A stretch of 64,000 nucleotides of DNA from assembly GCA_025361335.1 (NCBI GenBank), contig JANYAK010000022.1:21737-85736 (forward strand). The letters are read 5' to 3'. The notes under the pieces were generated by a model. That model saw nothing but the letters and a program-made list of their open reading frames with translations. It did no database searches and was not told the DNA's origin. How positions within the stretch are numbered: position 1 is the stretch's first letter; the number at the start of each line of letters is the position of its first letter. This DNA comes from Coriobacteriia bacterium (lineage in GTDB: Bacteria; Actinomycetota; Coriobacteriia; Anaerosomatales; PALSA-660). Both the position numbers and the translations under genes were made by a program. This document shows positions 1-24,120 of this stretch, one piece after another.

Positions 1-1609
1 GGTCGATCTCGCCGCGGAAGTCCGCCAGGGCGGCATCGCGATGCGCCGGATCGCCCGCAACGATCTCGTCGATCCGCTCCATCGCGAGTGTGGCCTGCGC
101 GATCCTGGCCTCTGTCTGCGGGGCCTGGTCGGCCGATATGGCCCCGACATCCGCCTTCGCCCGGTTCACGCCGATCGCCGCCTGGTAGGTGGCGTCGATC
201 AGCTCGCCCTTCGACATCGCATCGGATTCGTAGTTCATGATGTAGCGCCACGAGGGCTCGAGCAATAGCTGGCGGTGTTCCTCGAGCGTGTGCGCAAGCA
301 GCTTATAGCCGTGCGTGCCGGGGTCGTCGAACGCCATGGACCCCGGGTCAAGGAACGGGGCCATCGGACTTATGAACGGCAGAAGGCGGGGGTCGTCCCC
401 CGTGCGCTCGTACAGCCCCCTCACGTAGTCGGGCGTCTCGAGGACGGAGGCGGCGGTCTGACCGGGGATGCCGGTCATGAAGTACAGGTCGAAGCGTTTG
501 CATCCGTGACGCAGCGCGGCGCGGATCGACTCCTCGACCTGTTCGGTCGTGTAGTGCTTCTTGCCGAACGCGGTCCGGACCGCATCGTCGTGGCTCTCGA
601 CCGAGATCTCCACGGAGTAGTCGGGGAGGTGCGCGTCGAGGAACTCGTACATCTCTTCCTTCGGCGGGGTGAAGAACTCGAAACCGATCGGATTGCGCAG
701 CTTGATGCGCGAAAGCCCTTTCACGAACGTCTCCACGTAGTCGGGGCCGGCCTGCATGAAGTCGTTCAGGACGAAGACCGGCCCCGGGATGTAGCGCTGG
801 ATGTGCTGGATGTCGTGCACGAGCAGCTCGGGGTCGCGGAACGCGATGCGGTCGCGGCCGAAGTGCTCGCGGAAGGCATAGGCGCTGCCACCGCACGTCA
901 CGCAGTTGTGCGTGCAGCCGCGGCAGGTCAGCGAAGCGCACACGGGGTACTTCAGCCAGTCCTTGAACGGCACGAATCCCATCATGTCGCGGTACCGGAT
1001 CACGGCGCGCATGTTGAACGAGTAGTCGAGCGAGATGTCGTTCATGTCCCCGGGCACCCACGACAGATCGTTGACGTTGATCGAGCCGTCCGGGCCCTTC
1101 CACGTGAGGTTCGGGACATCGGCGACGGAGCCGTGCCCGCGCAGGGCCAGCATCAGCTGCCGGAAGGGTTCCTCCGTCGAGTCGCCGCGGAGGACGTAGT
1201 CCACCGCGTCGTACGAGCACAGTTCCTCGTGGAAGTAGCTCGACGTGAGCCCGCCGAAGATGACCGGCGTGTCCGGGTGGTGCTTCTTGCAGATCCGTGC
1301 GATCTCGATAGATCCGTGAGCGTGCGGCAGCCAATGCAGGTCGATGCCGAACGCCGTGGGGTCCATCTCCCGAATGGCCTTCTCGACGTCGAAATCCGGC
1401 CTGTTCAGCATCAGCACGGCCAGATTGACGATGCGGACGTTGAGACCGTGCCGCTCCAGATACTCCGCCATGGTCGTGAACCCGAGGGGGTACATCTCGA
1501 ACACCGGTGTGGAAGGGACCATGTCGGACACGGGGCCGAACATGATCGAGCGCTCGCGGAAGTCGTAGACGCTGGGCGCGTGCAGCAGCACGAGATCGGT
1601 GTTGGACAT
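1..1609 (-). CDS. B12-binding domain / radical SAM protein (N-terminus complete, C-terminus beyond left edge)
   Basis: Absent from the ORF track because it runs off the window. My manual minus-strand translation from ATG 1609 (GAGAGGAA upstream) stays open to base 2: MSNTDLVLLHAPSVYDFRERSIMFGPV.... It has an N-terminal B12-binding-like part (GIDLHWLPHAHGS, PVIFGGLTSS) followed by the radical-SAM cluster motif CTHNCVTC. Confidence 0.8.
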   Translation of the reverse strand, partial: MSNTDLVLLHAPSVYDFRERSIMFGPVSDMVPSTPVFEMYPLGFTTMAEYLERHGLNVRIVNLAVLMLNRPDFDVEKAIREMDPTAFGIDLHWLPHAHGSIEIARICKKHHPDTPVIFGGLTSSYFHEELCSYDAVDYVLRGDSTEEPFRQLMLALRGHGSVADVPNLTWKGPDGSINVNDLSWVPGDMNDISLDYSFNMRAVIRYRDMMGFVPFKDWLKYPVCASLTCRGCTHNCVTCGGSAYAFREHFGRDRIAFRDPELLVHDIQHIQRYIPGPVFVLNDFMQAGPDYVETFVKGLSRIKLRNPIGFEFFTPPKEEMYEFLDAHLPDYSVEISVESHDDAVRTAFGKKHYTTEQVEESIRAALRHGCKRFDLYFMTGIPGQTAASVLETPDYVRGLYERTGDDPRLLPFISPMAPFLDPGSMAFDDPGTHGYKLLAHTLEEHRQLLLEPSWRYIMNYESDAMSKGELIDATYQAAIGVNRAKADVGAISADQAPQTEARIAQATLAMERIDEIVAGDPAHRDAALADFRGEID

Positions 1610-1646
1610 GCGTTCCTCTCGGCCCGCCAGGTGGGTGGGTCGTGCG

Positions 1647-2711
1647 CTACTTCTTGCCCAGTCCCCGGACATGACAGTGGGCGCAGTACGTGACGGGGTG
1701 ACACTTGAAGCACCCGTAGGTTCCCTGTGCGACCACCACGGCGGGGTGCTGGGGCAGCCACGGCTTGGTCGGGTCCCCTTGCTTGTGATGGCACGCGTTG
1801 CAGAACTCGGCGTTGCGCGCGACGGCGACGCCCTTCGCGTGGCAGTTCGCGCAGACTGCCGGGGACTTTTTGCCCGCGGGACCGTGCGTCTCGACGAAGC
1901 CCTTCGGGTGCGGGACCTGCACGCCGTGGCACCTGTCACAGAAGCGGACCCGGACGTGGCACATGGAGCAGTACGTGCCGGTCTTGTCGGCAAGGGCCAG
2001 CTTCGCGTGTCCCGTCGAATCGCCGTAGTGCGTGTAGAAGCCGGGCAGGTCGTGGTTGGCCGGCTTGAGCTTGAATCCGATGGGGTGGCAGAGCTGGCAG
2101 TCACCCAGGGCCCGCTTCTTGCCTTCCATGTCGTGGCAGCGGAAGCATCCCTGCATCTTCATGAAGTCGGCATGGCGAGCGACACCCTTGGTCAGCGTCA
2201 CGCCGTTCTCATCGTGCCCGATGCGGTTGTGGCACTGGGTGCACGTGATCTTGTTTCTGGAGTGCACGGCGTGGTCGATGACGATTCCCCGGCTCGGCGT
2301 GAGCTTCCGGTTGGCGGTGTGGCACTGAGTGCACTGCCGCTCGGGCATCTGCCTCGGGTCCATGGCCAGCTCGGACTCCGCATTGATGGGGGGCTTGGCG
2401 CCCGACGCGACACCGATCAGCCCGCTGACTCCGGCTTCCGCCTTGTGGATGAGGAACGTGACGGGGTCGGCGTTCACCGGCATATGGCAGGCGAGGCACG
2501 AGATCTCCGAGTGCGACGAGTTCTCGTACGAGGACAGAGCGTCGGCCTGGAGGGTGTGACACATGCCGGCGGCGCAGAAGGCGCGGGTCGATGTGGCGCC
2601 GACGGCGACGACGATGACGGCCAGCAAGGACAGGACCGCCACTCCGGTCCAGACGATGAAGAGCGGTCGGCGAACCGGGTCTCGGAACCCGGAGAGCGAC
2701 AATCGAGGCAT
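1647..2711 (-). CDS. Membrane-anchored multihaem c-type cytochrome, NapC/NirT-like (about 12 haems)
   Basis: ORF 1647..2747 trimmed to ATG 2711 (GAAGGA about 11 nt upstream). TM helix LFIVWTGVAVLSLLAVIVVAV. Eleven CxxCH motifs (CLACH, CTQCH x2, CFRCH, CQLCH, CSMCH, CDRCH, CANCH, CNACH, CFKCH, CAHCH) plus CAAGMCH (CX4CH). Confidence 0.85.
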   Translation of the reverse strand: MPRLSLSGFRDPVRRPLFIVWTGVAVLSLLAVIVVAVGATSTRAFCAAGMCHTLQADALSSYENSSHSEISCLACHMPVNADPVTFLIHKAEAGVSGLIGVASGAKPPINAESELAMDPRQMPERQCTQCHTANRKLTPSRGIVIDHAVHSRNKITCTQCHNRIGHDENGVTLTKGVARHADFMKMQGCFRCHDMEGKKRALGDCQLCHPIGFKLKPANHDLPGFYTHYGDSTGHAKLALADKTGTYCSMCHVRVRFCDRCHGVQVPHPKGFVETHGPAGKKSPAVCANCHAKGVAVARNAEFCNACHHKQGDPTKPWLPQHPAVVVAQGTYGCFKCHPVTYCAHCHVRGLGKK

Positions 2712-2750
2712 TATCGTGGTCGTCCTTCGTCGTCGGACCCGGTACACAGG

Positions 2751-2756
2751 AGTCTA
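2751..2756 (-). promoter_or_regulatory. -10-like TAGACT about 40 nt upstream of the 12-haem cytochrome gene
   Basis: The minus strand reads GGTGTAGACTCC in the 277-nt gap 2712..2988. Confidence 0.3.
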
Positions 2757-2960
2757 CACCGACCCGTCCGCCCCGGTGGCGCTATCGAGTCCCGGACGAA
2801 GTGAATCATCCGGGAGGCCAAAGCGCCCGAGCAGAGCGCTCGGATCAGTCCCGTGCGGATTGTGACACGTCGCGGGCGGTATGAGGAAGGTGTTGGCCGC
2901 ACCGGTTTGTCTGCGCGGCAACTGCCTGTCGCCGCCGTACGGTGACGTCGGCGGCCGCCG

Positions 2961-2978
2961 GGCCCCGCGCGCGGGGCC
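2961..2978 (-). terminator. GC-rich perfect palindrome GGCCCCGCGCGCGGGGCC directly after the heptahaem cytochrome stop
   Basis: An 18-nt self-complementary sequence 11 nt downstream of the stop at 2989. It has no U-tract, so only a weak terminator/processing-site call. Confidence 0.3.
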
Positions 2979-2988
2979 GCGTGAAGCC

Positions 2989-4107
2989 CTACCACGGCCT
3001 CCACGGCGGGATCGGTCTGTGACAGTTGTCACAAAGTGCCGTCGTCGTGGCGGGCTCGATCAGCAGGCGCTTTCCCTGCACCTCGTGCGGGAAGGTCTGG
3101 AACCGGGGGACGTCGGCCGCGCTGGTGCCGTCGACCGAGTTGACCACGAAGGTGGTGGGGTCGGCCGTGGAAGCGTCGGCCGAGAGCGTCCCGGGATCGC
3201 GCGCGTCCTCGTGGCACTGCTGGCAGATCGCGCCCGACCCGAGAGCGAACAGACGATCCTTCGTCCCCTGGGTCATCAGGTAGCCCCTATTGGTGCCGCC
3301 GATCGTGCCCGTCTCGGTGGCGGGCGACGATGTGTCGTTCACCATGCGTATGACGTTCTGATAGTAGAACCCCTGGGGGTCGTTGCCGACCTGGTGATCA
3401 TGAAGACCGGCTCGAGCGGCCAGGCGCCCCTGATGGCATGCGGCGCACCACGCCGAGCCGTACCGGGTGACCCCCGCTCCGAACCCGCCGGGCTTGCGCT
3501 TGAGGAGCCGGGAGCTCGTGATGGGATAGCTGATCGAGGTGGCCGCCGGCACCACTCGCCGCCTGTCTCCGGTGAACGCCTGCACGACATCGGCCCCATG
3601 CGCGGAATGGCAGTCGGTGCAGATCATCGGCCGGCCGGGATCGGCCGGATCGAAGTTGACCGTCGATGTCCCGCCGGTCGACGAGCTGCCACCCGGGATG
3701 AGGTTGGTGGCCTCCACCCGGTGCCGCGAGATCTGGTTCGCCGGGACCCCGCGGGCCGCGAGGACTCCGTAGACTCCCTTGCCGCCCGTGCCGTCATGAC
3801 AGATCTGGCACGTCGCGACGATGGTGAAATCCGGCAAGAGGTGAGGCGCCATGCCCGAGGCGTTGTGGACCCGATGGCACGTATCGCACTTATGCGACGT
3901 CGCCGCATAGCCGAGATGGGGCCCCGTGACGGTGCGTGTGTCGGCGTTCGACTGGGACGGCGGCGTCCCGGTGGCTCCGTGACACTCGATGCACTGCGTG
4001 TAGATGGACGGACTCAAGCCCTCATCGACGTAGGCGAAGGAGGACGCGGGGGTGATTGCGACGATGAGCAGAGCTATCAGTGGCAGGATCGTGGTGCGGG
4101 TCGGCAT
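2989..4107 (-). CDS. Secreted/anchored heptahaem c-type cytochrome
   Basis: N-terminal hydrophobic signal/anchor ILPLIALLIVAITPASSFAY. Seven CxxCH motifs (CIECH, CDTCH, CQICH, CTDCH, CAACH, CQQCH, CDNCH). Ser/Thr/Gly-rich loops are present (GGSSSTGGTST, NDTSSPATETGTIGGT, SADASTADPTT). Confidence 0.85.
   Translation of the reverse strand: MPTRTTILPLIALLIVAITPASSFAYVDEGLSPSIYTQCIECHGATGTPPSQSNADTRTVTGPHLGYAATSHKCDTCHRVHNASGMAPHLLPDFTIVATCQICHDGTGGKGVYGVLAARGVPANQISRHRVEATNLIPGGSSSTGGTSTVNFDPADPGRPMICTDCHSAHGADVVQAFTGDRRRVVPAATSISYPITSSRLLKRKPGGFGAGVTRYGSAWCAACHQGRLAARAGLHDHQVGNDPQGFYYQNVIRMVNDTSSPATETGTIGGTNRGYLMTQGTKDRLFALGSGAICQQCHEDARDPGTLSADASTADPTTFVVNSVDGTSAADVPRFQTFPHEVQGKRLLIEPATTTALCDNCHRPIPPWRPW
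3018..3033. promoter_or_regulatory. TGTGA-N6-TCACA palindrome (Rex/CRP-type half-sites) inside the last haem motif of the heptahaem cytochrome
   Basis: TGTGACAGTTGTCACA. On the coding strand it is TGT GAC AAC TGT CAC A, encoding CDNCH. See findings; it may be coincidental. Confidence 0.2.
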
Positions 4108-4182
4108 GTCACGTCCCGTCGGGCATCCGCTGTCCAGGGAAACACAGTAATGTCACGTCGGCCAGCGGCCGCGGACGGGTTC

Positions 4183-4212
4183 AGTATATGGGGGTGCACC
4201 GACCAGCCACAA
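4183..4212 (-). promoter_or_regulatory. Sigma70-like promoter candidate (TTGTGG - 18 nt - TATACT) upstream of the heptahaem cytochrome gene
   Basis: The minus strand reads TTGTGGctggtcggtgcacccccaTATACT within the 164-nt gap 4108..4271. Confidence 0.3.
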
Positions 4213-4271
4213 GGAGGCGGTGCCCGACGGTGACGTGGAACACGGGAAGCGCGCCGTCGAGCGCGGCGTCA

Positions 4272-5408
4272 TTAAGGCGCGAGATCGACCACGAGCACCC
4301 GGTCGTTGCCCTTGTCGGCCACCGCGACCTTCTCCCCGGATGAATCGATCCCGTTGGGGAAGTTGAACTGGGCGGGGCCGACGCCGCGTTCACCGAATCG
4401 TGCGCCGATCGTGCCGGCGTGAGATATCTCGACGATCTCGAAGGCGAGGGCATCGGCGACGAGAAGGTCCCCCGCCGATGTCAGGGTGATGCCGCGGGGC
4501 AGCGCGAGCGGCGTCGAGGAGGCCTTCCCCATCTGGGGGACCGTGCCCCCGACGCTCCACAGCCGCGTCCCGTCGGGGCGGAACGCGACCACGCGCGCAT
4601 GGTTCGAGTCCGAGACATACATGATGCCGCTGGAGTCCACGTCGATCCCGTTCGGGTGGTCGAGGTCCGAGCGCCCTGTCCCCGGCTTGCCGAACTGCAG
4701 GAGGAGCTTGCCGGAGAGGTCGAAGACCATGACCTGGTACGTGTCCGTGGCGTAGACCTTGCCGCCGCTCACGGCAACGTCCGTGACTGCGATACCGGTC
4801 CCGTCCTGCCCCGAAGCTCCCCTCCCGACGCGCTTCCTGGGGTTGGGAAAGACGCGCGCGTACTCCCCGTCGGCGTCGAAGACCTGAATCTGGTCGTTGC
4901 GGAAGTCCGCGACATAGACGGAACCGTCGTCGGCGACGTCGATTCCCACGGGCTGGTTGAGCCTCCCCGGCTTCCAGGAGTACTTCCCGCCGGGCAGGGG
5001 CTTGGCGACCCCGAACGTGCCGAACTCGAACAGGAACGACCCGTTCCCTTCGAACACGCACACTCGATCGTGCCCGGTGTCGACGACGTAGATCCTGCCG
5101 TCGGGACCAAAGGCCACTCCCATCGGACCTGAGAAGCGCGGGTACGCCCCGCGCCCCGGACCCTCGATGGCCAGCACGGGCTGGATCCCCGTCGCGACGG
5201 CGCCGCCGCGCGTCACGAGCGATCCCGGGGCGGCGCTCGACCGCGCGAAATACCCGATGAGCACCGCGAGGGCGACGAAGAGCGCGATGGCCGTGGCGAC
5301 AAGTGCTCGGCGCAGTGTCAGGAACGCGCCGATGTCCGGGCGCCCGGATCGCGCGACGTCGCGCCCGTCCTCCGGTCCGGCGGGCAGGCGCGCTCCGTCA
5401 CCGCTCAT
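4272..5408 (-). CDS. Membrane-anchored NHL-repeat beta-propeller protein
   Basis: One TM helix (LVATAIALFVALAVLIGYF) followed by repeated NHL-type units (GVAFGPDGRIYVVDTGHDRVCVF, GIDVADDGSVYVADFRNDQIQVF, GIDVDSSGIMYVSDSNHARVVAF, GIDSSGEKVAVADKGNDRVLVV). Start overlaps the upstream stop (ATGA at 5405-5408). Confidence 0.8.
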   Translation of the reverse strand: MSGDGARLPAGPEDGRDVARSGRPDIGAFLTLRRALVATAIALFVALAVLIGYFARSSAAPGSLVTRGGAVATGIQPVLAIEGPGRGAYPRFSGPMGVAFGPDGRIYVVDTGHDRVCVFEGNGSFLFEFGTFGVAKPLPGGKYSWKPGRLNQPVGIDVADDGSVYVADFRNDQIQVFDADGEYARVFPNPRKRVGRGASGQDGTGIAVTDVAVSGGKVYATDTYQVMVFDLSGKLLLQFGKPGTGRSDLDHPNGIDVDSSGIMYVSDSNHARVVAFRPDGTRLWSVGGTVPQMGKASSTPLALPRGITLTSAGDLLVADALAFEIVEISHAGTIGARFGERGVGPAQFNFPNGIDSSGEKVAVADKGNDRVLVVDLAP

Positions 5409-6118
5409 TTCCGGGGGGCGATCCGGTCGAGCCCCTCCTTGGCCTCCACCATGTGCGGGGCGTACCGGAGGGCCTCGGTGTAGGCCAGCTTCGCCCGCTT
5501 GGGTTCGCCAAGCTTCTCATATGCCAGCCCCGTGAGGTACTGGAGGTCGGCTGACCAGGGATTGTCCTTGACGGCGAGGCGCACGGCCGCGACCACGGAC
5601 TTGTATTGACCCTTCGCCGCGTAGTACCTGCCGAGATCCGCCGCCGCCTGGACATGTGTCGGATCGACATCGAGGACTTCCCACAGCGCCCTCTCGGCCT
5701 TCTTGGGCGACCCGAGCTGCATGTAGATGACGCCCCGGTTGTACAGGGCCGCGAGGTTCTTCGGCGCCCGCGCGAGCACCTTGTCGTACTGCGCCAGGGC
5801 CATGTCGTTCTGCCCCTTCTTCTGATACGCCGCCGCAAGTTTGAGCCGGGCCGCCTGGTTGTTGGGATCGGAGTGCACCGCGCGCGTCAGTTCGACGAGG
5901 GACGGCTCCGCGGCGGGCTCCGTACTCGCGCTCTTCGCAGACGCCCCCGCCGGAACCGCCATGAGCGCGTACCTGGCAGCGATACCGGCCACACTGACCA
6001 GCGACACGATCAGGCCGAGGACGAGCCACCCGAGCCACCGCGGCACGGCATCGGCAGCGGCGTCGACGTCACTGCCGATGCCGGGTTCGTCGATCTCGGG
6101 GGCAAGCTGTTCGGTCAT
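5405..6118 (-). CDS. Membrane-anchored TPR-repeat protein
   Basis: ORF 5405..6271 trimmed to ATG 6118 (AAGGAGGG upstream; ATGA overlap with the rex stop). TM helix WLGWLVLGLIVSLVSVAGIA, then TPR-like repeats (AAYQKKGQNDMALAQYDKVLARAPKN, LGRYYAAKGQYKSVV, GLAYEKLGEPKRAKLAYTEALRYAP). Confidence 0.75.
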   Translation of the reverse strand: MTEQLAPEIDEPGIGSDVDAAADAVPRWLGWLVLGLIVSLVSVAGIAARYALMAVPAGASAKSASTEPAAEPSLVELTRAVHSDPNNQAARLKLAAAYQKKGQNDMALAQYDKVLARAPKNLAALYNRGVIYMQLGSPKKAERALWEVLDVDPTHVQAAADLGRYYAAKGQYKSVVAAVRLAVKDNPWSADLQYLTGLAYEKLGEPKRAKLAYTEALRYAPHMVEAKEGLDRIAPRK

Positions 6119-6786
6119 TGCAGCCCTCCTTTGTCGGCGCAGTGCCCCTTCGGGCCCGCGAACCTCAGGTGGAACGAAAGCACGAGCAACTCCGCGAGAA
6201 GGTCGACGTTGCGGACGCTGACGCCCTCGGGAACGTCCAGAGCGACCGGAGCGAAATTGAGGACCCCGCACACCCCCGCCAGAGTGACCCGGTCGGCCAG
6301 GGACTGCGCGACCTCGCCCGGGGTGGTGATGGCGGCGATGTCGACGTCCTCCGAGAGGAACACGCTCTCGAGCTCATGGATGGAGCGGACCGTCACGCCT
6401 TGGACCAGGATGCCGATCTTGGACGGATCGGCATCCAGGACAGCCACGACGGCGAAACCGCGATCCTCGGACATGATGTAGCGGATGAACGCGCTGCCGA
6501 GCCTCCCGTACCCGATGACGCAGACGCGACGCGGGCTGGTCACCCCGAGCGTACGCATGAGATGCGCGAGCAGTGCGAGCACGTCATATCCGATGCCGCG
6601 CGTGCCGAGCTCACCGAGGTAGGACAGATCCTTGCGCACCTGCGCGGCGTTCGTGCCGGCCATCTCGGCTATCTCGCTCGAACTGATGAGGGCCACGCCG
6701 TCGGCCTGCGCCCGCACGAGGGAGCGCAGATAGGCCGGGAGCCGCTCGATCGTCGTCTCGGGCACGTCCATCATGTCAGTGTCCAT
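6115..6786 (-). CDS. rex: Redox-sensing transcriptional repressor Rex
   Basis: ORF 6115..6942 trimmed to ATG 6786. N-terminal winged-helix signature ERLPAYLRSL...ISSSEIAEMAGTNAAQVRKDLSYLGELGTRGIGYDV. NAD(H) Rossmann part VCVIGYGRLGSAF...AAITTP...GVLNFAP. Confidence 0.85.
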   Translation of the reverse strand: MDTDMMDVPETTIERLPAYLRSLVRAQADGVALISSSEIAEMAGTNAAQVRKDLSYLGELGTRGIGYDVLALLAHLMRTLGVTSPRRVCVIGYGRLGSAFIRYIMSEDRGFAVVAVLDADPSKIGILVQGVTVRSIHELESVFLSEDVDIAAITTPGEVAQSLADRVTLAGVCGVLNFAPVALDVPEGVSVRNVDLLAELLVLSFHLRFAGPKGHCADKGGLQ

Positions 6787-6796
6787 GACCGCCGCC

Positions 6797-9040
6797 TCAC
6801 TTCGGCGCCGGGTTCGAACCGCCGGCGGCGAGGCTGGCCTCGACCGACTTGAGCCCAGCGGTGGCGCGAGCATCACCCGGCTGCAGAACGAGGACCCGGT
6901 CGTACTGCGCCCGCGCCTTCTCGTACTCGCCGAGCCGCGCATACGTGTCGCCCAGCAGCTGCATGGGCTCCGCGTAGTTCGGGTCCATCAGGACCGCAGC
7001 CTCGAGGACCGTCGCGGCTGAGTCGAGGCGCCCGAGGGTCCAGAGAGCCAAGGCCTTCTGGAGCCGGATCGCCGGTCCGTAGGGCTCGACCGCGATGCCC
7101 CGATCGGCCACCTTCACCGCGCGCTGGGCGAAGTCTCCCTGGAACGCGTTGCCCGCCTGGTTGTAAAGAGCCGCCAGGAACACATAGTTGTCGAACTCGG
7201 TGGGCACGAGCGCGATGACGTCTTGGTACGCCCTCTCCGCGAGCACGAACGCATCGTACGCGTGTCGTACGTCGGGCTGCGGATCCTTGCCGTCCGCCTC
7301 TGTCTGTCTCGCAGTATCGAGATCGACGGCCATCTGCTGCGCGTAGGTCTGGCCCAGTTGGGCGCGGTACATGTCGTTGAACGGGTTGAGCCGGATGGCC
7401 GATTGGATCGAGGCCAGCGTGCTTCCGCCGGAGCTCGTGTTGAACTGCGCATGCAAATAGTCGTTGTCGGCGACGATGTAGGCGATGTTGTACACGGACG
7501 CGGCGCTCACGACGACCGTCATGGCGAAGGCCGCCGCCATGCCCCACTTCGGTGCCGCGATCTCCACGACGCGCGCCGTCGGTGCCACGACCATCGCGAG
7601 AGACAGCCACAGGAACACGGACGAGCCCGTCACCGACAACCCGAACATCAGATGGACGATGTAGCCGACAGCCGCGGCCCAGAATCCCGTCACGATCAGC
7701 CCCGCGGCGCCCCGGTCACGCCGGAACGCGCTGGGCGCGCCGAGGAACAGGATCCAGCCGAACAGCCCATACAGGAGGAAGGCGCCGACGAGTCCGATGC
7801 CCGCCGCGAGCTGGAGCGGATAGTTGTGGACGTTGTCCGCGACCGACAGATACCCGGCATCCCTCGTGTAGGTGAGCGGCTTGGTGTGAGGGAACACGAG
7901 CCGGAACGTGTCGGCGCCGAAGCCGAGAATCGGTCGCTCCTTGACCGCCCGCACGGCAGCCTGCCAGATCTCGAACCTGGTCAGAGCGCTTCCCTCGTTC
8001 AGCTTGAAGATCGACGCCATGCGCGTCCAGATGTTGAGCACCGGGTTGTCGCTGCGCAGGCTGCGCGCCACGACGGCCCCGCTTATCGCCGTGCCGACAC
8101 CCGCCGCGGTCCAGTCGAGAAGGCCCCATTCGACCTTCGCGAGCGCCGCCGCGACCACCGTGATGCCCAGTGCGACGACACCCCCGATCCAGGCGCTGCG
8201 CACGAACGCCGTGAGCCACGCCGCGACGCTCACCAGGAACACCGCCCAGTAGATGCCCCGCCAGACCCTGCGGGACTCCGCGAGGGCCATGACCAGCGCG
8301 ATGGGCAGCAACAGCACCAGGAACCCGCCTAGCAGGTCGGGGTTGCCGAAGGTCGCGAAGCCGCGATTGAACTCGAACGGCAGCTGTGTCCCCCACTGGA
8401 TGGGATCGATCCCGAGGAACTGCGAGAACCCGTAGGCCGCCACGATCGCTCCAGAGACGACGAACGTGTGCGCCAAGGAACGCGAGCGGCTGGGCCTGTC
8501 CACCAGCTGGACGACCAGGAAGTAGACGATCGCGTACGTGAGGAACGAGAGGAAGCCCTCGTAGCGTCGGTACTTCCCGAAGATCGCGGTCGCGGGACTC
8601 ACCGACGTGAACGAGGTGATCAGGACCCATGTCAGGAAGGCGAGGATGATGAAGTCGGCTCGCGTGCGACGCAACTTGCCGCCGCGCACCAGCAGGTCGG
8701 CCGACCAGGCGCCCACCCCGACCAGAGCGCACGCCCTCATGACGAAGACCTTCACGATGTCGAACTGGTCGTAGGTGAGCGGGAGCGCGAACACCGTGAG
8801 GCCTGGGGCCAGCTTGAAGATCCAGTTGGCGTTGCTGATCGCGAGGGGCACAGCGAAGACGAGGACGTGAAGGGCGACCCAAGCGACCTTGTGCGCACCG
8901 CTCATGCCGTCCATGGGGCGAGCCGCGGCTACCTGCCGAGACGGGGTCGCGACCGGCTTGGAACGCTGCGCGGAGCCCGCGCTCTTGCCGCCCTTTCGCC
9001 TGCCTGACGCCACCTCGGCCATCCCCCTATCGAGCGCCAC
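6797..9040 (-). CDS. O-antigen ligase / Wzy_C-domain polytopic membrane protein with C-terminal TPR domain
   Basis: Many TM segments. Wzy_C-like core ADNVHNYPLQLAAGIGLVGAFLLYG. The C-terminal ~230 aa are TPR-like (LGDTYARLGEYEKARAQYDRVLVLQPGD, ALALWTLGRLDSAATVLEAAVLMDPNY). Start is uncertain (GTG 9040 or ATG 9022). Confidence 0.8.
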   Translation of the reverse strand: MALDRGMAEVASGRRKGGKSAGSAQRSKPVATPSRQVAAARPMDGMSGAHKVAWVALHVLVFAVPLAISNANWIFKLAPGLTVFALPLTYDQFDIVKVFVMRACALVGVGAWSADLLVRGGKLRRTRADFIILAFLTWVLITSFTSVSPATAIFGKYRRYEGFLSFLTYAIVYFLVVQLVDRPSRSRSLAHTFVVSGAIVAAYGFSQFLGIDPIQWGTQLPFEFNRGFATFGNPDLLGGFLVLLLPIALVMALAESRRVWRGIYWAVFLVSVAAWLTAFVRSAWIGGVVALGITVVAAALAKVEWGLLDWTAAGVGTAISGAVVARSLRSDNPVLNIWTRMASIFKLNEGSALTRFEIWQAAVRAVKERPILGFGADTFRLVFPHTKPLTYTRDAGYLSVADNVHNYPLQLAAGIGLVGAFLLYGLFGWILFLGAPSAFRRDRGAAGLIVTGFWAAAVGYIVHLMFGLSVTGSSVFLWLSLAMVVAPTARVVEIAAPKWGMAAAFAMTVVVSAASVYNIAYIVADNDYLHAQFNTSSGGSTLASIQSAIRLNPFNDMYRAQLGQTYAQQMAVDLDTARQTEADGKDPQPDVRHAYDAFVLAERAYQDVIALVPTEFDNYVFLAALYNQAGNAFQGDFAQRAVKVADRGIAVEPYGPAIRLQKALALWTLGRLDSAATVLEAAVLMDPNYAEPMQLLGDTYARLGEYEKARAQYDRVLVLQPGDARATAGLKSVEASLAAGGSNPAPK

Positions 9041-10397
9041 GGCCGGTCAGGACCACGCGCACGGTGTCGACGACGATCTGCACATCCATCAGCAGGTTCT
9101 GATGATACATGTAGATGAGGTCGTACTTCAGTTTGCGGGCGGGGGTCGTCGCGTACGATCCGCTCACCTGGGCGAGCCCGGTCGCCCCCGGCTTGAGACG
9201 GAACCTCTCGCGATAGCCCGGGATGTCTCGCAGGAACGAAGCGACGAATGCCGGGCGTTCGGGACGTGGTCCGATGAAGCTCATCTCACCGCGCAGGATG
9301 TTCACCAGCTGCGGGAGCTCGTCGATCCGGTAGGTGCGCAGGAACCGGCCGAGCGGCGTGATCCTCGGGTCCTCCTCTGTGGCGAAGACCGGGCCGCTGA
9401 CCGACTCGGCGTCGCGAACCATCGTGCGGAACTTGATCACCTTGAATAGGCGCATGTCCCTGCCCACCCGCTCCTGGAGGAACAGGACGGGCCAGCCCAT
9501 GGTGGTCAGGATCCCCAGGGCTGCCAGCAACATGATCGGGCTGAGCGCGACGAGCAGGACGACTCCGAAGAGGGCGTCGAGCAGCCGCTTCGCGCCCGAG
9601 TACCACTGGGGCGAGCGATGGGTGATCTCCATCAGTGGGATGTCGGCGACGATGCTGTCCACGGTCCCGATGAAGATCTCGTACAGTTCGGGCACCACAT
9701 CCACGCGAACGTCCGTCTCGCCTGTCAGCGTGATGTCCTCGAACAACTCACGCAGGGCGACGGGCGAGGCCACGATGACCCGGTCCACCCGCTCGCGCGC
9801 GACCAGGGCCGACAGCTCGTGAACGGTGCCGAGGACGGAGTGCCCGGGGGTGTCGGCCGCCTCACCGAACGCCTTGTCCTCATCGCGGGCGACCAGGCCG
9901 ACGACCCGGTATCCCCACTTCTCGCGCTCCGCCAGCCGTGCCGCCAGCTCCCGGGCCAGCGGCCCCGTGCCGACGATGAGCACTCTCTGCTCGGGCCAGT
10001 GTATGGGCGTGAGACGCGTCGCCCCGACTCGCCAGCCGATGAGGAGGAGGACCTGGAGTGGCGCGGCGATCAGGATGACGAGCCGCGGGAAGGCGTCGAA
10101 GGTCTGACCGGACAGTTGGAGCCCGCCCAAGGTGAGCAGGGTCGTGAGTGTGGCCGCCGACAGCGCGCTGCGGACGATGGACCACGCGCTCTCGACCCGC
10201 TCCGGATCGTAGAGCCCGTAGATGTAGGCGCCGACCAGGAACGTCACCGTCAGGAACGGCGCGAGCGAGTAGTAGGCGCGGACGTTGTACGCGGGCAGCG
10301 TGCCCCCGAAGCGCACGAAGAACGCGGCGAGCACCGCCGCGTTGTATGTCAGCGCATCGACGATGATGGAGAGCCATGCGAACTGGGCGCGCGACAC
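9027..10397 (-). CDS. Polyprenyl-phosphate glycosyl-1-phosphate transferase (WbaP/bacterial sugar transferase family), initiating enzyme
   Basis: N-terminal TM bundle, central Rossmann-like VLIVGTGPLARELA, and C-terminal catalytic signature KRLLDALFGVVLL...RVGRDMRLFKVIKFRTM...DPRITPLGRFLRTYRIDELPQLVNILRGEMSFIGPRPERP. Confidence 0.9.
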   Translation of the reverse strand: MSRAQFAWLSIIVDALTYNAAVLAAFFVRFGGTLPAYNVRAYYSLAPFLTVTFLVGAYIYGLYDPERVESAWSIVRSALSAATLTTLLTLGGLQLSGQTFDAFPRLVILIAAPLQVLLLIGWRVGATRLTPIHWPEQRVLIVGTGPLARELAARLAEREKWGYRVVGLVARDEDKAFGEAADTPGHSVLGTVHELSALVARERVDRVIVASPVALRELFEDITLTGETDVRVDVVPELYEIFIGTVDSIVADIPLMEITHRSPQWYSGAKRLLDALFGVVLLVALSPIMLLAALGILTTMGWPVLFLQERVGRDMRLFKVIKFRTMVRDAESVSGPVFATEEDPRITPLGRFLRTYRIDELPQLVNILRGEMSFIGPRPERPAFVASFLRDIPGYRERFRLKPGATGLAQVSGSYATTPARKLKYDLIYMYHQNLLMDVQIVVDTVRVVLTGRGAR

Positions 10398-11537
10398 CTA
10401 TGCCACTCCCGTCAGTTCGCGGTACAGGCCCAAGTACGCCGATGTCATCGTCTCGACGGTGAAGCCGGCCAGCACGCGCTCGCGGGCCTGCCTCCCGAGA
10501 CGGGCGCGCAGCCCCTCGTCTCCCGTCAGCAGCCGCAGTGCGTCGGCCAACCGCTCCACGTCCCCCGCGGGGACGGTGATCCCCGTGACCCCGTCGAGGT
10601 TCGCGTACGGGACCGACGTGGGAACATCGGTGGAAACGCACGGCGTGCCGCACACCTGTGCTTCGAGCTGGACGATGCCGAACGACTCGGCGCGCGACAC
10701 GGACGGAAGGCACAGCACGTCCGCCGCGTGGTAGTGCGCGACCAAACTCTCGAGCGGCTGAGACGGCAGGAAGGTCACGCGCCCCTTCGGCCTCAGGGCC
10801 ACCGCCATCTCGCGCAGGCGGCTCTCGAGCGGCCCGCTGCCCATGACGACCAGATCGGCGTCGACACCGGCCATGGCGCGCACCAAGACCTCGACCCCCT
10901 TGTAGTAGACGAGCCTCCCGACGAACAGCACGGTGGGACGATCGTGCTGCTGCCGCAGCCCCGCGACAGCCGAGACGACGGAGGGCGTGAGGTCGTAGCG
11001 CGCGGGCTCGATGCCGTACGGGATGACGCGGCACTTATCGGCATAGCGCGACAGCACGTCGCTGCCCTCGATGATGTTGGGCGACGACGCCACGATCGCG
11101 TCGGCGCGCCGAAAGACAGCGTCCAGGATGGGTCGATACAGCGCGAGCAGGCGCTTCTGCCTCGTGATGTCCGCGTGGTAGCCGATCACCATGGGCACGC
11201 GAGAACCGGAGGACAGCCATGCGGCTTCTCCCCAGGGATACGGGTGGTTCAGCTGGATGAGGTCGGACGCGCCGGGGCCCCGCCCGGCGGCTCGGATGGC
11301 GGCGGGCATCCCGAGAGCAAGGGGCGTCTTCGCGATCGCCGCGGCCCGTGCGAGCCGTGTCACGGAGACCCCGTCGACGATGTCGGTGACCGTGACGCCC
11401 GCCTCGTTCGCCACTATCGCGGCAACGTCGACCCCTTTGGCCGCCAAGCCCGCCGACAGAGTGGCCACGACAGTCTCGACCCCTCCGAGGTGTGGCGGGC
11501 TGTAGTACTTGTTCACCTGGGTGACGCGCATCGCCAT
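10398..11537 (-). CDS. Glycosyltransferase, GT4 (GT-B fold)
   Basis: MRVTQVNKYYSPPHLGGVE N-terminus. E-x7-E region SRAESFGIVQLEAQVCGTPCV. Abuts the downstream start with no gap. Confidence 0.85.
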   Translation of the reverse strand: MAMRVTQVNKYYSPPHLGGVETVVATLSAGLAAKGVDVAAIVANEAGVTVTDIVDGVSVTRLARAAAIAKTPLALGMPAAIRAAGRGPGASDLIQLNHPYPWGEAAWLSSGSRVPMVIGYHADITRQKRLLALYRPILDAVFRRADAIVASSPNIIEGSDVLSRYADKCRVIPYGIEPARYDLTPSVVSAVAGLRQQHDRPTVLFVGRLVYYKGVEVLVRAMAGVDADLVVMGSGPLESRLREMAVALRPKGRVTFLPSQPLESLVAHYHAADVLCLPSVSRAESFGIVQLEAQVCGTPCVSTDVPTSVPYANLDGVTGITVPAGDVERLADALRLLTGDEGLRARLGRQARERVLAGFTVETMTSAYLGLYRELTGVA

Positions 11538-11541
11538 CGAG

Positions 11542-12942: not shown

Positions 12943-12999
12943 GGCGTCCTCCGAGCTCGAAACGACATACGCCTGCCCGACAGCGGGCAACGTGGCCCT

Positions 13000-21924: not shown

Positions 21925-24120
<2,196 letters not shown>

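What the first reader, a model, noticed from the sequence alone, without database searches (positions are those of the whole stretch)
1..6786. Rex-led multihaem cytochrome / NHL / TPR / B12-radical-SAM module: candidate NADH-sensing extracytoplasmic electron-transfer unit
Seen: six co-directional minus-strand genes run rex -> TM-anchored TPR -> TM-anchored NHL propeller -> exported 7-haem cytochrome -> TM-anchored cytochrome with 11 CxxCH plus 1 CX4CH -> B12-binding radical-SAM enzyme. ATGA start/stop overlaps occur at 6115-6118 and 5405-5408. Known: Rex senses NADH/NAD+ and represses respiratory/fermentative genes. NapC/NirT-type membrane multihaem proteins oxidise quinols. NHL propellers often accompany multihaem cytochromes in metal-respiring bacteria. 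Inference: this may be a quinol-to-cell-surface electron conduit under direct redox control. The genome has a monoderm/actinobacterial flavour (Rex, Ppm1, strong SD sites, very high GC), where such conduits are poorly described. The role of the radical-SAM partner (cofactor, lipid or cytochrome modification) is unknown.
Basis: partly seen in the sequence, partly recalled or inferred. Interest (0 to 1): 0.7.

Follow-up and report, generated by a model that had tools for sequence, protein, structure and literature searches.

The report
Actinobacterial multihaem cytochrome respiratory gene cluster
This is a compact copy of a gene cluster typical of subsurface Coriobacteriia (order Anaerosomatales) that most likely carries respiratory electrons from the cell membrane out into the cell wall through two multihaem cytochromes helped by two scaffold proteins; the genes are real and conserved, but this kind of system is already known from cultured relatives.

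Summary
All six minus-strand genes are there as described: rex, a membrane-anchored TPR protein, a membrane-anchored NHL propeller, a secreted 7-haem cytochrome, an anchored 12-haem NapC/NirT-type cytochrome, and a TIGR04190 B12-radical-SAM gene cut by the window edge.

The order recurs in dozens of Anaerosomatales (OPB41) genomes. At least two loci (L015/L150, L154) show the same seven-gene run.

Three corrections:
1. The radical-SAM gene is followed by menG/ubiE in 28 of 28 loci and then, where the locus reaches that far, usually by a deaminase and an RseC gene. It often has its own Rex-like gene. It heads a neighbouring quinone-type operon.
2. Rex is optional, present in 18 of 29 orthologous clusters. 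The window has no canonical Rex operator in its intergenic DNA, although relatives carry such boxes just upstream of their cytochrome genes.
3. The conserved block extends upstream into glycan-assembly genes (PMM, GT4, priming transferase, Wzy_C/TPR). Most relatives add a 14-haem DmsE/MtrA-like cytochrome, and some carry ResB/CcsB.

Best reading: an electron conduit from the membrane to the cell wall, with acceptor and direction unknown.

Cultured relatives and a biocathode relative were already reported to carry such cytochrome clusters, so this is a new member of a known kind. An untested parallel with Geobacter OmcE/OmcS nanowire clusters is the most novel reading left open.

The parts
1..1609 (-). 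B12-binding radical-SAM gene of family TIGR04190. It is 5'-complete and cut by the window edge (536 of about 604 aa). It is best placed with a downstream menG/ubiE-deaminase-RseC operon that lies outside the window.
   Evidence: TIGR04190 639 bits (cut-off 500), PF02310 and PF04055. The CX3CX2C motif 'CTHNCVTC' is read. The full-length 604-aa form is P0001. It is followed by ubiE in 28 of 28 related loci.
1647..2711 (-). cyt12: membrane-anchored dodecahaem cytochrome c. It has a NapC/NirT/NrfH-like N-terminal tetrahaem part and eight further haems.
   Evidence: 11 CxxCH plus CX4CH. TM helix at residues 29-47 of the long ORF. PF03264 38.4 bits against 24.1. The family profile hits NrfH 2J7A at E 4.5e-4. 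All 12 motifs are invariant in 11 orthologues.
2712..2988 (-). cyt7-cyt12 intergenic region, with a GC-rich hairpin just after the cyt7 stop.
   Evidence: Sequence. The fold is not better than shuffles (z = -1.3). The best Rex-box score is 8 of 14.
2989..4107 (-). cyt7: secreted heptahaem cytochrome c of a family seen so far almost only in Coriobacteriia.
   Evidence: 7 CxxCH. Signal-peptide-like N-terminus. 7 motifs, 6 extra His invariant and Met278 nearly invariant (at least 90%) in 80 homologues. Homologous to the 6-haem 'c6' of type-B clusters (hhalign 99.6%, 247 columns).
3017..3034 (.). Palindrome resembling a Rex box (11 of 14). It lies inside cyt7 and is made of the codons for C-D-N-C-H.
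   Evidence: It is not conserved in orthologues.
4108..4271 (-). NHL-cyt7 intergenic region and probable cyt7 promoter. It holds a 10-nt direct repeat, GACGTGACAT, twice (4106-4115 and 4150-4159).
   Evidence: The best Rex-box score is 8 of 14. Orthologous regions in relatives carry extended -10 elements, TTGTGA half-sites and some 11-12 of 14 Rex boxes.
4272..5408 (-). NHL-repeat beta-propeller with one N-terminal membrane anchor; the propeller faces outside.
   Evidence: PF01436 94.5 bits. TM helix at 36-54. PDB sequence matches to six-bladed NHL propellers, including the PknD sensor. Only repeat-scaffold residues are conserved in 30 orthologues, with no Cys or His site.
5405..6118 (-). TPR protein with one N-terminal membrane anchor. 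It is translationally coupled to rex upstream and NHL downstream.
   Evidence: TPR_1, TPR_2, TPR_17 and related hits. TM helix at 29-47. ATGA overlaps. A TPR-NHL pair also occurs in type-B clusters.
6115..6786 (-). rex: redox-sensing repressor (Rex1).
   Evidence: NF003992 246.7 bits against 226, PF06971 and PF02629. The GYGRLG Rossmann motif and the canonical 'QVRKDLSYLG' recognition helix are read.
6797..9040 (-). Wzy_C (O-antigen ligase/polymerase-like) polytopic membrane protein with a C-terminal TPR domain. It is the conserved immediate upstream neighbour.
   Evidence: PF04932 49 bits plus TPR hits. About 12 TM segments. Present upstream of the TPR gene in the 29 type-A loci by definition; in about ten loci without rex it directly abuts the TPR gene.
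9027..12990 (-). Conserved glycan-assembly core: priming sugar transferase (9027-10397), GT4 glycosyltransferase (10398-11537) and phosphomannomutase/phosphoglucomutase (11542-12990).
   Evidence: Pfam hits. The order PMM-GT4-Bac_transf-Wzy is kept in at least 11 related loci.

Best explanation
Window 1-6786 holds a compact variant of the respiratory cytochrome cluster that is typical of Anaerosomatales (OPB41, Coriobacteriia, monoderm).

Proposed working:
1. cyt12 is anchored by one N-terminal helix with its haem domain outside. Its NapC/NirT/NrfH-like first four haems take electrons from a membrane carrier. Menaquinol is the obvious candidate, but this step is inferred.
2. Its eight further haems pass the electrons to the secreted heptahaem cyt7 in the wall zone. 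From there they go to an external or wall-zone acceptor. The flow could equally run in reverse, from an external donor.
3. The membrane-anchored TPR protein and NHL propeller are non-catalytic extracytoplasmic scaffolds. They position or assemble the secreted cytochrome.
4. Rex1 is co-translated with TPR and NHL. It ties expression to the NADH/NAD+ ratio where it is present.
5. The radical-SAM gene is not part of this machine. It heads the neighbouring operon, conserved across the order, that reads rSAM-menG/ubiE-(SAH/5'-dA/aminofutalosine-type) deaminase-RseC. That operon probably makes or modifies a quinone-like lipid.

Shown here: gene content, topology signals, haem motifs, family matches, conservation, and Rex boxes in relatives. 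Inferred: electron path, carrier, acceptor, scaffold role, and Rex control in this genome.
For: - Gene and family calls.
- Topology: positively charged N-termini followed by a single hydrophobic helix in TPR, NHL and cyt12; a cleavable-looking signal peptide in cyt7.
- The cyt12 family profile finds the quinol dehydrogenase NrfH (2J7A) as its best solved relative. The match covers the TM helix and the first two haem motifs. The Pfam NapC/NirT match covers model positions 15-170 of 174.
- The toolkit TPR + NHL + small secreted cytochrome (c7 or its homologue c6) + anchored c12, with or without the DmsE/MtrA-like c14, recurs in two different gene orders. Type A has 29 loci and type B has 7. This argues for function rather than inherited order alone.
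- ResB (PF05140, 65 bits) and CcsB (TIGR03144, 157 bits, below its 187.6-bit cut-off; E 5e-46) lie within 10 kb in 11 related loci.
- Rex boxes scoring 11-12 of 14 lie in the NHL-to-c7 intergenic region of 4 relatives: 4 observed against 0.08 expected, P about 2e-6. In all, 9 of 18 such boxes in 1.27 Mb lie within 300 nt upstream of cytochrome, rex or rSAM genes.
- Literature on relatives: Fe(III)- or sulfur-respiring isolates with 17-18 multihaem cytochromes (PMC9686372); a biocathode Coriobacteriia MAG, which carries a cyt12 homologue (L181), expresses multihaem cytochromes under current (PMC7943316); NHL and TPR proteins sit in cytochrome clusters of the monoderm Dethiobacter (PMC10376724).
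- rSAM reassignment.
Against: - No experiment bears on this genome.
- The window's own intergenic DNA has no convincing Rex operator (best 8 of 14).
- Rex1 is absent from 11 of 29 orthologous clusters (direct abutment checked in about ten).
- No ResB/CcsB or ccm gene lies in the 64 kb, so haem attachment in this genome is assumed from relatives.
- No respiratory quinones were detected in the two cultured relatives.
- Anaerosoma tenue reportedly carries a similar cytochrome cluster but does not reduce Fe(III), so the acceptor is open.
- The window lacks the c14 cytochrome that most relatives have (24 of 29).
- cyt7 has no solved relative by fold search. The model has pLDDT 71 and Foldseek found nothing.
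- rSAM directly follows cyt12 in 20 of 32 loci. It lies only 37 nt downstream here, with no terminator found. Co-transcription, and therefore a functional tie to the cytochromes, cannot be excluded.
Confidence: 0.65

Rival explanations
1. One Rex-controlled six-gene operon runs from rex to the radical-SAM gene, and the B12-rSAM enzyme modifies the cytochromes, their haem or an associated cofactor.
For: All six genes are co-directional. The cyt12-rSAM gap is 37 nt and no terminator was detected. rSAM directly follows cyt12 in 20 of 32 related loci. One relative has a Rex-like box at the rSAM start (L172).
Against: rSAM is always followed by menG/ubiE (28 of 28) and usually by a deaminase and RseC. 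It keeps that company when the upstream neighbour is a Rex-like gene (8 loci), Wzy (2 loci) or an unrelated cytochrome gene (2 loci; divergently oriented in the closest relatives L048 and L049). Intergenic gaps of 164 and 277 nt, which are promoter-like in relatives, split the six genes. Type-B clusters work with the same cytochromes several kb from rSAM.
Confidence: 0.1
2. A monoderm counterpart of the Geobacter OmcE/OmcS cytochrome-nanowire systems. cyt7 (and c6 in type-B clusters) polymerises into an extracellular haem filament. The adjacent NHL propeller and TPR protein act as assembly or anchor factors. The conserved upstream Wzy_C/TPR glycan genes glycosylate it.
For: In OmcE loci from Geobacter and several phyla the order is DmsE-like cytochromes, NHL propeller, OmcE, NHL propeller. 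The window's NHL hits those propellers (E 1e-10 to 1e-28) and c14 hits their cytochromes. Of all solved structures the cyt7 profile hits OmcE 7TFS best (E 8e-5). Published omcE clusters lie near resB/ccsB and are often followed by 15-70 glycosylation genes, TPR proteins and regulators (bioRxiv 10.1101/2025.10.22.684050). An NHL protein next to omcS is reported as important for anode growth and proposed to be needed for OmcS assembly or expression (PMC9070056). Parvivirga makes pili-like appendages only on ferrihydrite. The Wzy_C/TPR linkage holds in 29 loci.
Against: The cyt7-OmcE similarity covers only a 40-column paired-CXXCH module and is not colinear. cyt7 has 7 haems against 4. Foldseek found no match. 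NHL repeats are generic, so NHL-NHL hits prove little. The glycan region may simply build the cell-wall polymer. No filament data exist for cyt7.
Confidence: 0.12
3. TPR and NHL belong to the cell-envelope glycan machinery together with Wzy_C/TPR. The cytochrome genes are merely syntenic neighbours inherited within one order.
For: Wzy_C/TPR directly abuts TPR-NHL in about ten loci that lack rex. All evidence for type A comes from a single order, so shared descent could explain the order. The NHL protein has no redox residues conserved.
Against: Type-B clusters keep TPR-NHL between cyt12 and c6 with no Wzy gene nearby. NHL propellers flank cytochromes in unrelated phyla and in Dethiobacter and Desulfovibrio ferrophilus. 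NHL is followed directly by a c6/c7 gene in both cluster types.
Confidence: 0.08

Closest known systems
Multihaem cytochrome clusters of the cultured Anaerosomatales, Anaerosoma tenue and Parvivirga hydrogeniphila (Khomyakova et al. 2022, PMC9686372)
   Same: Same order of bacteria. They have 17-18 membrane or surface multihaem cytochromes. One cluster with two 'quinol-oxidising' cytochromes plus an MtrA homologue is shared by both isolates. One Parvivirga cluster includes Rex and cytochrome c biogenesis genes. The proposed role is dissimilatory Fe(III) reduction.
   Different: The paper does not dissect the TPR, NHL, Wzy_C or rSAM neighbours. I could not map its locus tags onto this cluster. 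The window lacks the MtrA/DmsE-like c14 and the ccs genes. Anaerosoma tenue does not reduce Fe(III), so the acceptor is not settled.
NapC/NirT/NrfH/CymA membrane quinol dehydrogenases
   Same: cyt12 has the single N-terminal helix, four haem motifs in the first 150 residues or so, a Pfam PF03264 match above threshold, and NrfH as its best solved relative.
   Different: The first motif is CX4CH (CX3CH in relatives) and lacks the CxxCHxM of NrfH. Eight extra haems are fused at the C-terminus. The score is below the NrfH equivalog cut-off (52 against 134 bits). No quinone has been detected in cultured relatives.
Gram-positive extracellular electron transfer chains of Thermincola potens and Carboxydothermus ferrireducens, and the NHL/TPR-containing cytochrome clusters of Dethiobacter alkaliphilus (PMC10376724)
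   Same: The envelope is monoderm. There is a membrane quinol-oxidase-type multihaem cytochrome plus secreted or wall multihaem cytochromes. NHL and TPR proteins are encoded in the same clusters and were proposed as assembly helpers.
   Different: There is no significant sequence match to the solved terminal reductase OcwA (6I5B, E 0.07 with the c6 profile). The c7/c6 family was found here almost only in records labelled Coriobacteriia or Actinomycetota. Linkage to Rex, Wzy_C/TPR and the rSAM operon is specific to this lineage.
Geobacter OmcE and OmcS cytochrome-nanowire gene clusters (bioRxiv 10.1101/2025.10.22.684050; PMC9070056)
   Same: NHL beta-propeller genes sit directly beside a small secreted multihaem cytochrome, with DmsE-like cytochromes next to them. 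ResB/CcsB are nearby. A long glycosylation region with TPR proteins and regulators is adjacent.
   Different: Those hosts are diderm and have a large outer-membrane beta-barrel, which is absent here. cyt7 shares only a 40-column paired-CXXCH module with OmcE. It has 7 haems, not 4 or 6. No filament evidence exists.
Rex regulons of Actinobacteria and Firmicutes (for example Streptomyces coelicolor rex-hemACD; from my own knowledge)
   Same: Rex1 passes the equivalog cut-off and has a canonical recognition helix and Rossmann motif. It is the first gene of a translationally coupled set. Relatives have TTGTGAA-N4-TTCACAA-like boxes upstream of cytochrome genes.
   Different: No such box lies in this window's intergenic DNA. 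Rex1 is dispensable in a third of orthologous clusters. The lineage has up to three Rex paralogues, each beside a different respiratory unit.

Membership tests
Rex redox-sensing repressor (NF003992 / PRK05472) | Winged-helix N-terminal domain plus Rossmann NAD(H) domain, scoring above the curated cut-off | tested here: met
   PF06971 67.6 bits, PF02629 59.6 bits, NF003992 246.7 bits against 226. GYGRLG and the following Asp are read in the sequence.
Rex redox-sensing repressor (NF003992 / PRK05472) | An operator (TTGTGAA-N4-TTCACAA) in front of the genes it controls | tested here: inconclusive
   Window intergenic regions score at best 8 of 14. The only 11 of 14 site (3017-3034) lies inside cyt7. 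Relatives have 11-12 of 14 boxes upstream of c7, c12 and rex.
Rex redox-sensing repressor (NF003992 / PRK05472) | DNA binding released by NADH | not testable with these tools
   Needs EMSA with and without NADH and NAD+.
NapC/NirT/NrfH tetrahaem quinol dehydrogenases (PF03264) | N-terminal membrane helix followed by four c-type haem sites; match above the Pfam gathering score | tested here: met
   TM helix at 29-47. Motifs at C58 (CX4CH), C84, C139 and C169. PF03264 38.4 bits against 24.1, covering model positions 15-170 of 174. Profile hit to NrfH 2J7A at E 4.5e-4.
NapC/NirT/NrfH tetrahaem quinol dehydrogenases (PF03264) | NrfH equivalog score and the CxxCHxM first-haem motif | tested here: not met
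   TIGR03153 52 bits against a cut-off of 134. The first motif is CAAGMCH-T-L with no Met at +2.
NapC/NirT/NrfH tetrahaem quinol dehydrogenases (PF03264) | Oxidises menaquinol | not testable with these tools
   No quinones were detected in the cultured relatives (PMC9686372). A menG/ubiE operon is adjacent in all relatives.
OmcE-type cytochrome nanowire subunit | Full-length homology to OmcE: tetrahaem, four CxxCH plus four distal His in the conserved order | tested here: not met
   hhalign of the cyt7 family against the OmcE family gives 98.3% probability over only 40 columns. cyt7 has 7 haems. The HMM matches are not colinear. Foldseek found no hit.
OmcE-type cytochrome nanowire subunit | Gene neighbourhood with NHL beta-propeller(s) and DmsE-like cytochromes | tested here: met
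   for OmcE loci; for this lineage. The outer-membrane beta-barrel partner is absent, as expected for a monoderm.
OmcE-type cytochrome nanowire subunit | Polymerises into a haem filament | not testable with these tools
   Needs cryo-EM of surface appendages or a multimer prediction with haems.
TIGR04190 B12-binding radical-SAM family | B12-binding domain plus radical-SAM domain with CX3CX2C, above the equivalog cut-off | tested here: met
   639 bits against 500, PF02310 and PF04055. 'CTHNCVTC' is read. The family has no assigned function, and no paper mentions it.
System II cytochrome c maturation (ResB/CcsB) in the same genome | resB and ccsB genes present | tested here: inconclusive
   None in the 64-kb window. 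The rest of the genome is not available. Present within 10 kb of the cluster in 11 related loci (ResB PF05140 65 bits; CcsB TIGR03144 157 bits, below its 187.6-bit cut-off).
Porin-cytochrome (MtrCAB/Pcc) conduits | Outer-membrane beta-barrel sheathing a decahaem cytochrome | tested here: not met
   No Pfam or NCBIfam hit among the six genes points to a porin. The cultured members of the lineage have a Gram-positive wall. The DmsE/MtrA-like c14 of relatives is membrane-anchored and is missing from the window.

The most novel reading that the evidence does not exclude
The NHL propeller and the c7/c6-type secreted cytochrome may be the Gram-positive equivalent of the NHL-OmcE/OmcS pair of Geobacter. 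Under this reading the cytochrome polymerises into an extracellular cytochrome filament. The anchored TPR and NHL proteins assemble it, the anchored cyt12 charges it, and the conserved upstream Wzy_C/TPR glycan machinery glycosylates or embeds it. The ferrihydrite-induced 'pili-like appendages' of Parvivirga would then be such filaments. This would be the first cytochrome nanowire system in Actinomycetota and in a monoderm bacterium.
Probability: 0.12. Interest if true: 0.85.

Novelty: new member of a known kind. Interest (0 to 1): 0.42.

Why it matters
Anaerosomatales (OPB41) are widespread in deep-subsurface, mud-volcano and bioelectrochemical habitats. How a Gram-positive actinobacterium moves electrons across a thick wall is still unresolved.

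This analysis gives a defined, conserved parts list: an anchored 12-haem NapC-type cytochrome, a 14-haem DmsE-like cytochrome that is optional, a lineage-specific secreted c6/c7 cytochrome, and a TPR-NHL pair. It also sets the boundaries of the unit and names two linked units worth testing: a Wzy_C/TPR glycan module and a B12-rSAM/MenG operon.

It separates what is core (TPR, NHL, cytochromes) from what is accessory (Rex1) or neighbouring (rSAM). Genetic or biochemical work on the two cultured species can therefore be aimed precisely.

Two further questions follow. One is the resemblance to Geobacter nanowire clusters. The other is the puzzle of an adjacent menG operon in organisms with no detectable quinones.

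Tried and rejected
- Exact-match look-ups of the window's own contig failed for cyt12 and for the full-length rSAM. The rest of the genome, including the ccs genes, could not be inspected.
- A canonical Rex-box search in the window gave two 11 of 14 hits, both inside coding sequence. I rejected them as evidence for Rex control here.
- GTGACA half-sites looked enriched in 1-7 kb. Much of the enrichment reflects Cys-His codons (TGTCAC) of the cytochrome genes on the minus strand.
- Promoter and terminator consensus scans and hairpin folding of the three junctions were no better than shuffles.
- The OmcE lead from the PDB profile search was followed by fetching 77 OmcE loci and running profile-profile comparison. 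The homology shrank to a 40-column paired-CXXCH module, so family membership was rejected.
- The c6 profile against the PDB gave only non-significant hits: OmcE 0.027 and OcwA 0.07.
- Literature searches for TIGR04190 and Ta0216, and for B12-rSAM with menaquinone, found nothing useful. A link to archaeal GDGT ring synthases (also B12-rSAM enzymes) remains an untested thought.
- The supplement of the Anaerosomatales paper held no locus-tag table that could map their clusters onto this one.
- Rfam and tRNA scans of the window were empty.
- The idea that the TPR protein is a CcmI/NrfG-type apocytochrome chaperone got no support. There were only generic TPR hits.

Full report
**1. What is in the sequence**

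Six minus-strand reading frames with high third-position GC (0.74-0.88) fill window 1-6786.

- **rex, 6115-6786.** NF003992 scores 246.7 bits against a cut-off of 226. It has the wHTH and Rossmann domains, a GYGRLG motif and the canonical QVRKDLSYLG recognition helix.
- **TPR protein, 5405-6118.** It has one N-terminal membrane helix.
- **NHL propeller, 4272-5408.** PF01436 scores 94.5 bits. It also has one N-terminal helix.
- **cyt7, 2989-4107.** It has a signal-peptide-like N-terminus and seven CxxCH motifs.
- **cyt12, 1647-2711.** It has one helix, a CX4CH motif and eleven CxxCH motifs. The Pfam NapC/NirT match (PF03264) scores 38.4 bits against 24.1.
- **B12-binding radical-SAM gene of family TIGR04190, <1-1609.** It scores 639 bits against 500. 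It starts at 1609 and runs off the window (536 of about 604 aa).

The rest of the window (6.8-64 kb) is one long cell-surface glycan biosynthesis region. It contains no cytochrome c maturation gene, no Rfam match and no tRNA.

**2. Whose genes these are**

Searches with cyt12 in one genome per species returned 47 and then 80 loci. All are Coriobacteriia or Actinomycetota MAGs by title or by gene content. Several are labelled Anaerosomatales, and one is the biocathode organism EMTCatB1.

The literature on this order already reports:
- 17-18 multihaem cytochromes per genome in the two cultured species;
- a cytochrome cluster shared by both species;
- a Parvivirga cluster with Rex and cytochrome-biogenesis genes;
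- Fe(III) or sulfur respiration;
- a Gram-positive wall;
- no detectable quinones;
- pili-like appendages that Parvivirga makes only on ferrihydrite (PMC9686372).

The biocathode relative expresses multihaem cytochromes under current (PMC7943316).

**3. Conservation and true boundaries**

I mapped the window's proteins onto all related loci. This shows a co-directional supercluster:

PMM - GT4 - priming sugar transferase - Wzy_C/TPR - [Rex1] - TPR - NHL - [c7] - [c14] - c12 - [Rex2] - rSAM - menG/ubiE - deaminase - RseC - small protein - TPR.

Among 29 such 'type A' loci:

| Feature | Loci out of 29 |
|---|---|
| Rex1 | 18 |
| NHL | 23 |
| c14 (14-haem, DmsE/MtrA-like, membrane-anchored) | 24 |
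| c7 | 13 |
| both c7 and c14 | 8 |
| c7 only, as in the window | 5 |

- L015/L150 and L154 show the same Wzy-rex-TPR-NHL-c7-c12-rSAM run as the window. In L015 the c7-position gene is an 852-aa, 14-haem fusion.
- In about ten loci without Rex1, the Wzy_C/TPR gene directly abuts the TPR gene.
- A second arrangement, 'type B', occurs in 7 loci of the 80-locus set, and also in L048/L049, the closest relatives found (rSAM 90-91% identical). It reads: giant 48-61-haem cytochrome - c14 - c12 - TPR - NHL - c6.
- c6 and c7 are homologous (hhalign 99.6%, E 5e-25, 247 columns).
- In a cyt12 tree the window groups with these type-B copies. The two gene orders do not form separate clades, so the cluster has been rearranged repeatedly while keeping the same parts.

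That argues for functional linkage among TPR, NHL, the small secreted cytochrome and the anchored cytochromes.

ResB (PF05140, 65 bits) and CcsB (TIGR03144, 157 bits, below its 187.6-bit cut-off; E 5e-46) lie within 10 kb of the cluster in 11 related loci.

**4. The radical-SAM gene**

- Wherever a downstream gene could be mapped, rSAM is followed by a MenG/UbiE methyltransferase (28 of 28 loci). For that methyltransferase TIGR01934 scores 233 bits against 158, and NF001244 scores 219 against 216.
- Next come an amidohydrolase of the TRZ/ATZ, 5'-deoxyadenosine and aminofutalosine deaminase group (all below curated cut-offs) and an RseC-like protein.
- Its upstream neighbour varies: cyt12 in 20 loci, a divergent Rex-like gene in 8, Wzy in 2 and another cytochrome in 2.

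I therefore place it at the head of a neighbouring operon that probably makes or modifies a quinone-like lipid, not as a cytochrome partner.

Two caveats apply. All the evidence comes from one order. In the window it lies only 37 nt from cyt12, with no detectable terminator. No publication mentions TIGR04190.

**5. Rex control**

Rex1 has a canonical recognition helix, so the classical box is the right probe.

In the window:
- The only good match (3017-3034, 11 of 14, perfect 7-nt arms) is built from the codons TGT GAC AAC TGT CAC of cyt7's last haem motif.
- Intergenic DNA scores at best 8 of 14, which is background.

In relatives:
- Boxes of 11-12 of 14 lie between NHL and c7 in four loci: 4 observed against 0.08 expected, P about 2e-6.
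- 9 of 18 boxes in 1.27 Mb lie within 300 nt upstream of cytochrome, rex or rSAM genes.
- TTGTGA half-sites are ninefold enriched in the NHL-to-cytochrome spacers.

Rex control of such cytochrome genes is therefore supported for the lineage but not shown for this window. Rex1 is dispensable in a third of the clusters.

**6. What the proteins look like**

- **cyt12.** The family profile's best solved relative is the quinol dehydrogenase NrfH (2J7A, E 4.5e-4). The match aligns the helix and the first two haem sites. The first site is CX3CH or CX4CH without the NrfH Met, and eight haems are appended.
- **cyt7.** Across 80 homologues it keeps seven CxxCH and six further His invariant, and one Met nearly so (at least 90%). 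That is enough axial ligands for seven haems. An exhaustive search found 152 cluster representatives at E <= 1e-30, and the named ones are Coriobacteriia.
- **NHL propeller.** Only repeat-scaffold residues are conserved, with no Cys or His site. This fits a binding or scaffold role.
- **TPR protein.** It gives only generic TPR matches.

**7. The OmcE lead**

- The cyt7 profile's best PDB hit is OmcE (7TFS, E 8e-5). The second OmcE structure, 9YUQ, is also listed.
- I fetched 77 OmcE loci. Their order is DmsE-like cytochromes, NHL propeller, OmcE, NHL propeller. The window's NHL and the relatives' c14 hit these neighbours.
- A 2025 preprint describes omcE clusters as lying near resB/ccsB. It says they are often followed by 15-70 glycosylation genes with TPR proteins and regulators.
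- An NHL gene beside omcS is reported as important for anode growth and proposed to be needed for OmcS assembly or expression.

The neighbourhood parallel with this window is striking. However, profile-profile comparison reduces the cyt7-OmcE homology to a 40-column paired-CXXCH module. The Foldseek search of the cyt7 model found nothing. cyt7 is not an OmcE-family member. 'Works like a nanowire system' stays an open, low-probability reading.

**8. Verdict**

The finding is real, and the core of its interpretation holds: an extracytoplasmic electron-transfer unit in a monoderm actinobacterium. Three changes are needed:
- Take out the radical-SAM gene.
- Treat Rex as an accessory regulator, so far unproven for this copy.
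- Extend the conserved block upstream to the Wzy_C/TPR glycan genes.

The electron carrier, the acceptor and the direction of flow are unknown.

Such clusters have already been reported for cultured and uncultured relatives, and NHL and TPR partners are known from other electroactive bacteria. I therefore rate this a new member of a known kind, of moderate interest.

Noticed in passing
window 6797-64000: Nearly the whole rest of the window is one cell-surface glycan biosynthesis region. It holds GT2 and GT4 transferases, RmlA/B/D-like enzymes, GDP-mannose dehydratases, NeuB plus a CBS-nucleotidyltransferase (suggesting a nonulosonic acid), DegT aminotransferases, two TPP enzymes, acyltransferases and an ABC exporter.
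   Followed up: partly
window 25094-26965(-), 34027-35703(+), 52614-54485(-), 54454-56427(-), 62017-63885(+): Five polytopic membrane proteins of 560-660 aa, each with about 9-13 hydrophobic segments, match no Pfam family even at E 0.05. They may be uncharacterised GT-C-type glycosyltransferases or polymerases.
   Followed up: partly
window 3017-3034: A perfect 7-nt-arm palindrome resembling a Rex or CRP box (TGTGACA-AC-TGTCACA). It is encoded by the C-D-N-C-H haem-motif codons of cyt7 and uses the rare TGT Cys codon twice. It is not conserved in orthologues.
   Followed up: yes
window 4106-4115 and 4150-4159: A 10-nt direct repeat (GACGTGACAT on the minus strand) occurs twice, 44 nt apart. 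The first copy overlaps the cyt7 start codon. It may be a regulator site or chance.
   Followed up: no
window 23100-23117: A second 11 of 14 Rex-box-like match (TGGTGAATTCGCACACAA). It lies at the 5' ends of divergent glycan genes, a GDP-mannose-dehydratase-like gene and an acyltransferase, and is apparently inside coding sequence.
   Followed up: no
L001 224-7303; L002 1130-7666; L014 1071-8372; L048 and L049 5' ends: Giant cytochromes of 2100-2400 aa with 48-61 CxxCH motifs, plus CarboxypepD_reg and F5/8 type C domains. They head the type-B clusters of the closest relatives.
   Followed up: no
related loci, e.g. L018 18556-19248 (Rex2); L169, L181 (Rex3): Anaerosomatales carry up to three Rex paralogues, each beside a different respiratory unit. 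Rex1 precedes TPR-NHL. Rex2 (25-31% identical, below the Rex cut-offs) precedes rSAM-menG. Rex3 (36-41%) lies downstream of long cyt12-like cytochromes.
   Followed up: partly
L048 10001-15512; L049 10001-15648, and 26 other loci: A conserved operon reads TIGR04190 rSAM - MenG/UbiE - deaminase-type amidohydrolase - RseC-like Cys-rich protein - small protein - TPR protein. It occurs in an order whose cultured members have no detectable quinones, so it is a candidate pathway for an unrecognised membrane electron carrier.
   Followed up: partly
L001, L002, L018 and many 'Eubacteriales' records: Several public MAG records holding this cluster are labelled Eubacteriales, Gammaproteobacteria or Aeromicrobium. 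Their gene content and synteny are Coriobacteriia-like, so these are probably taxonomic mislabels.
   Followed up: no
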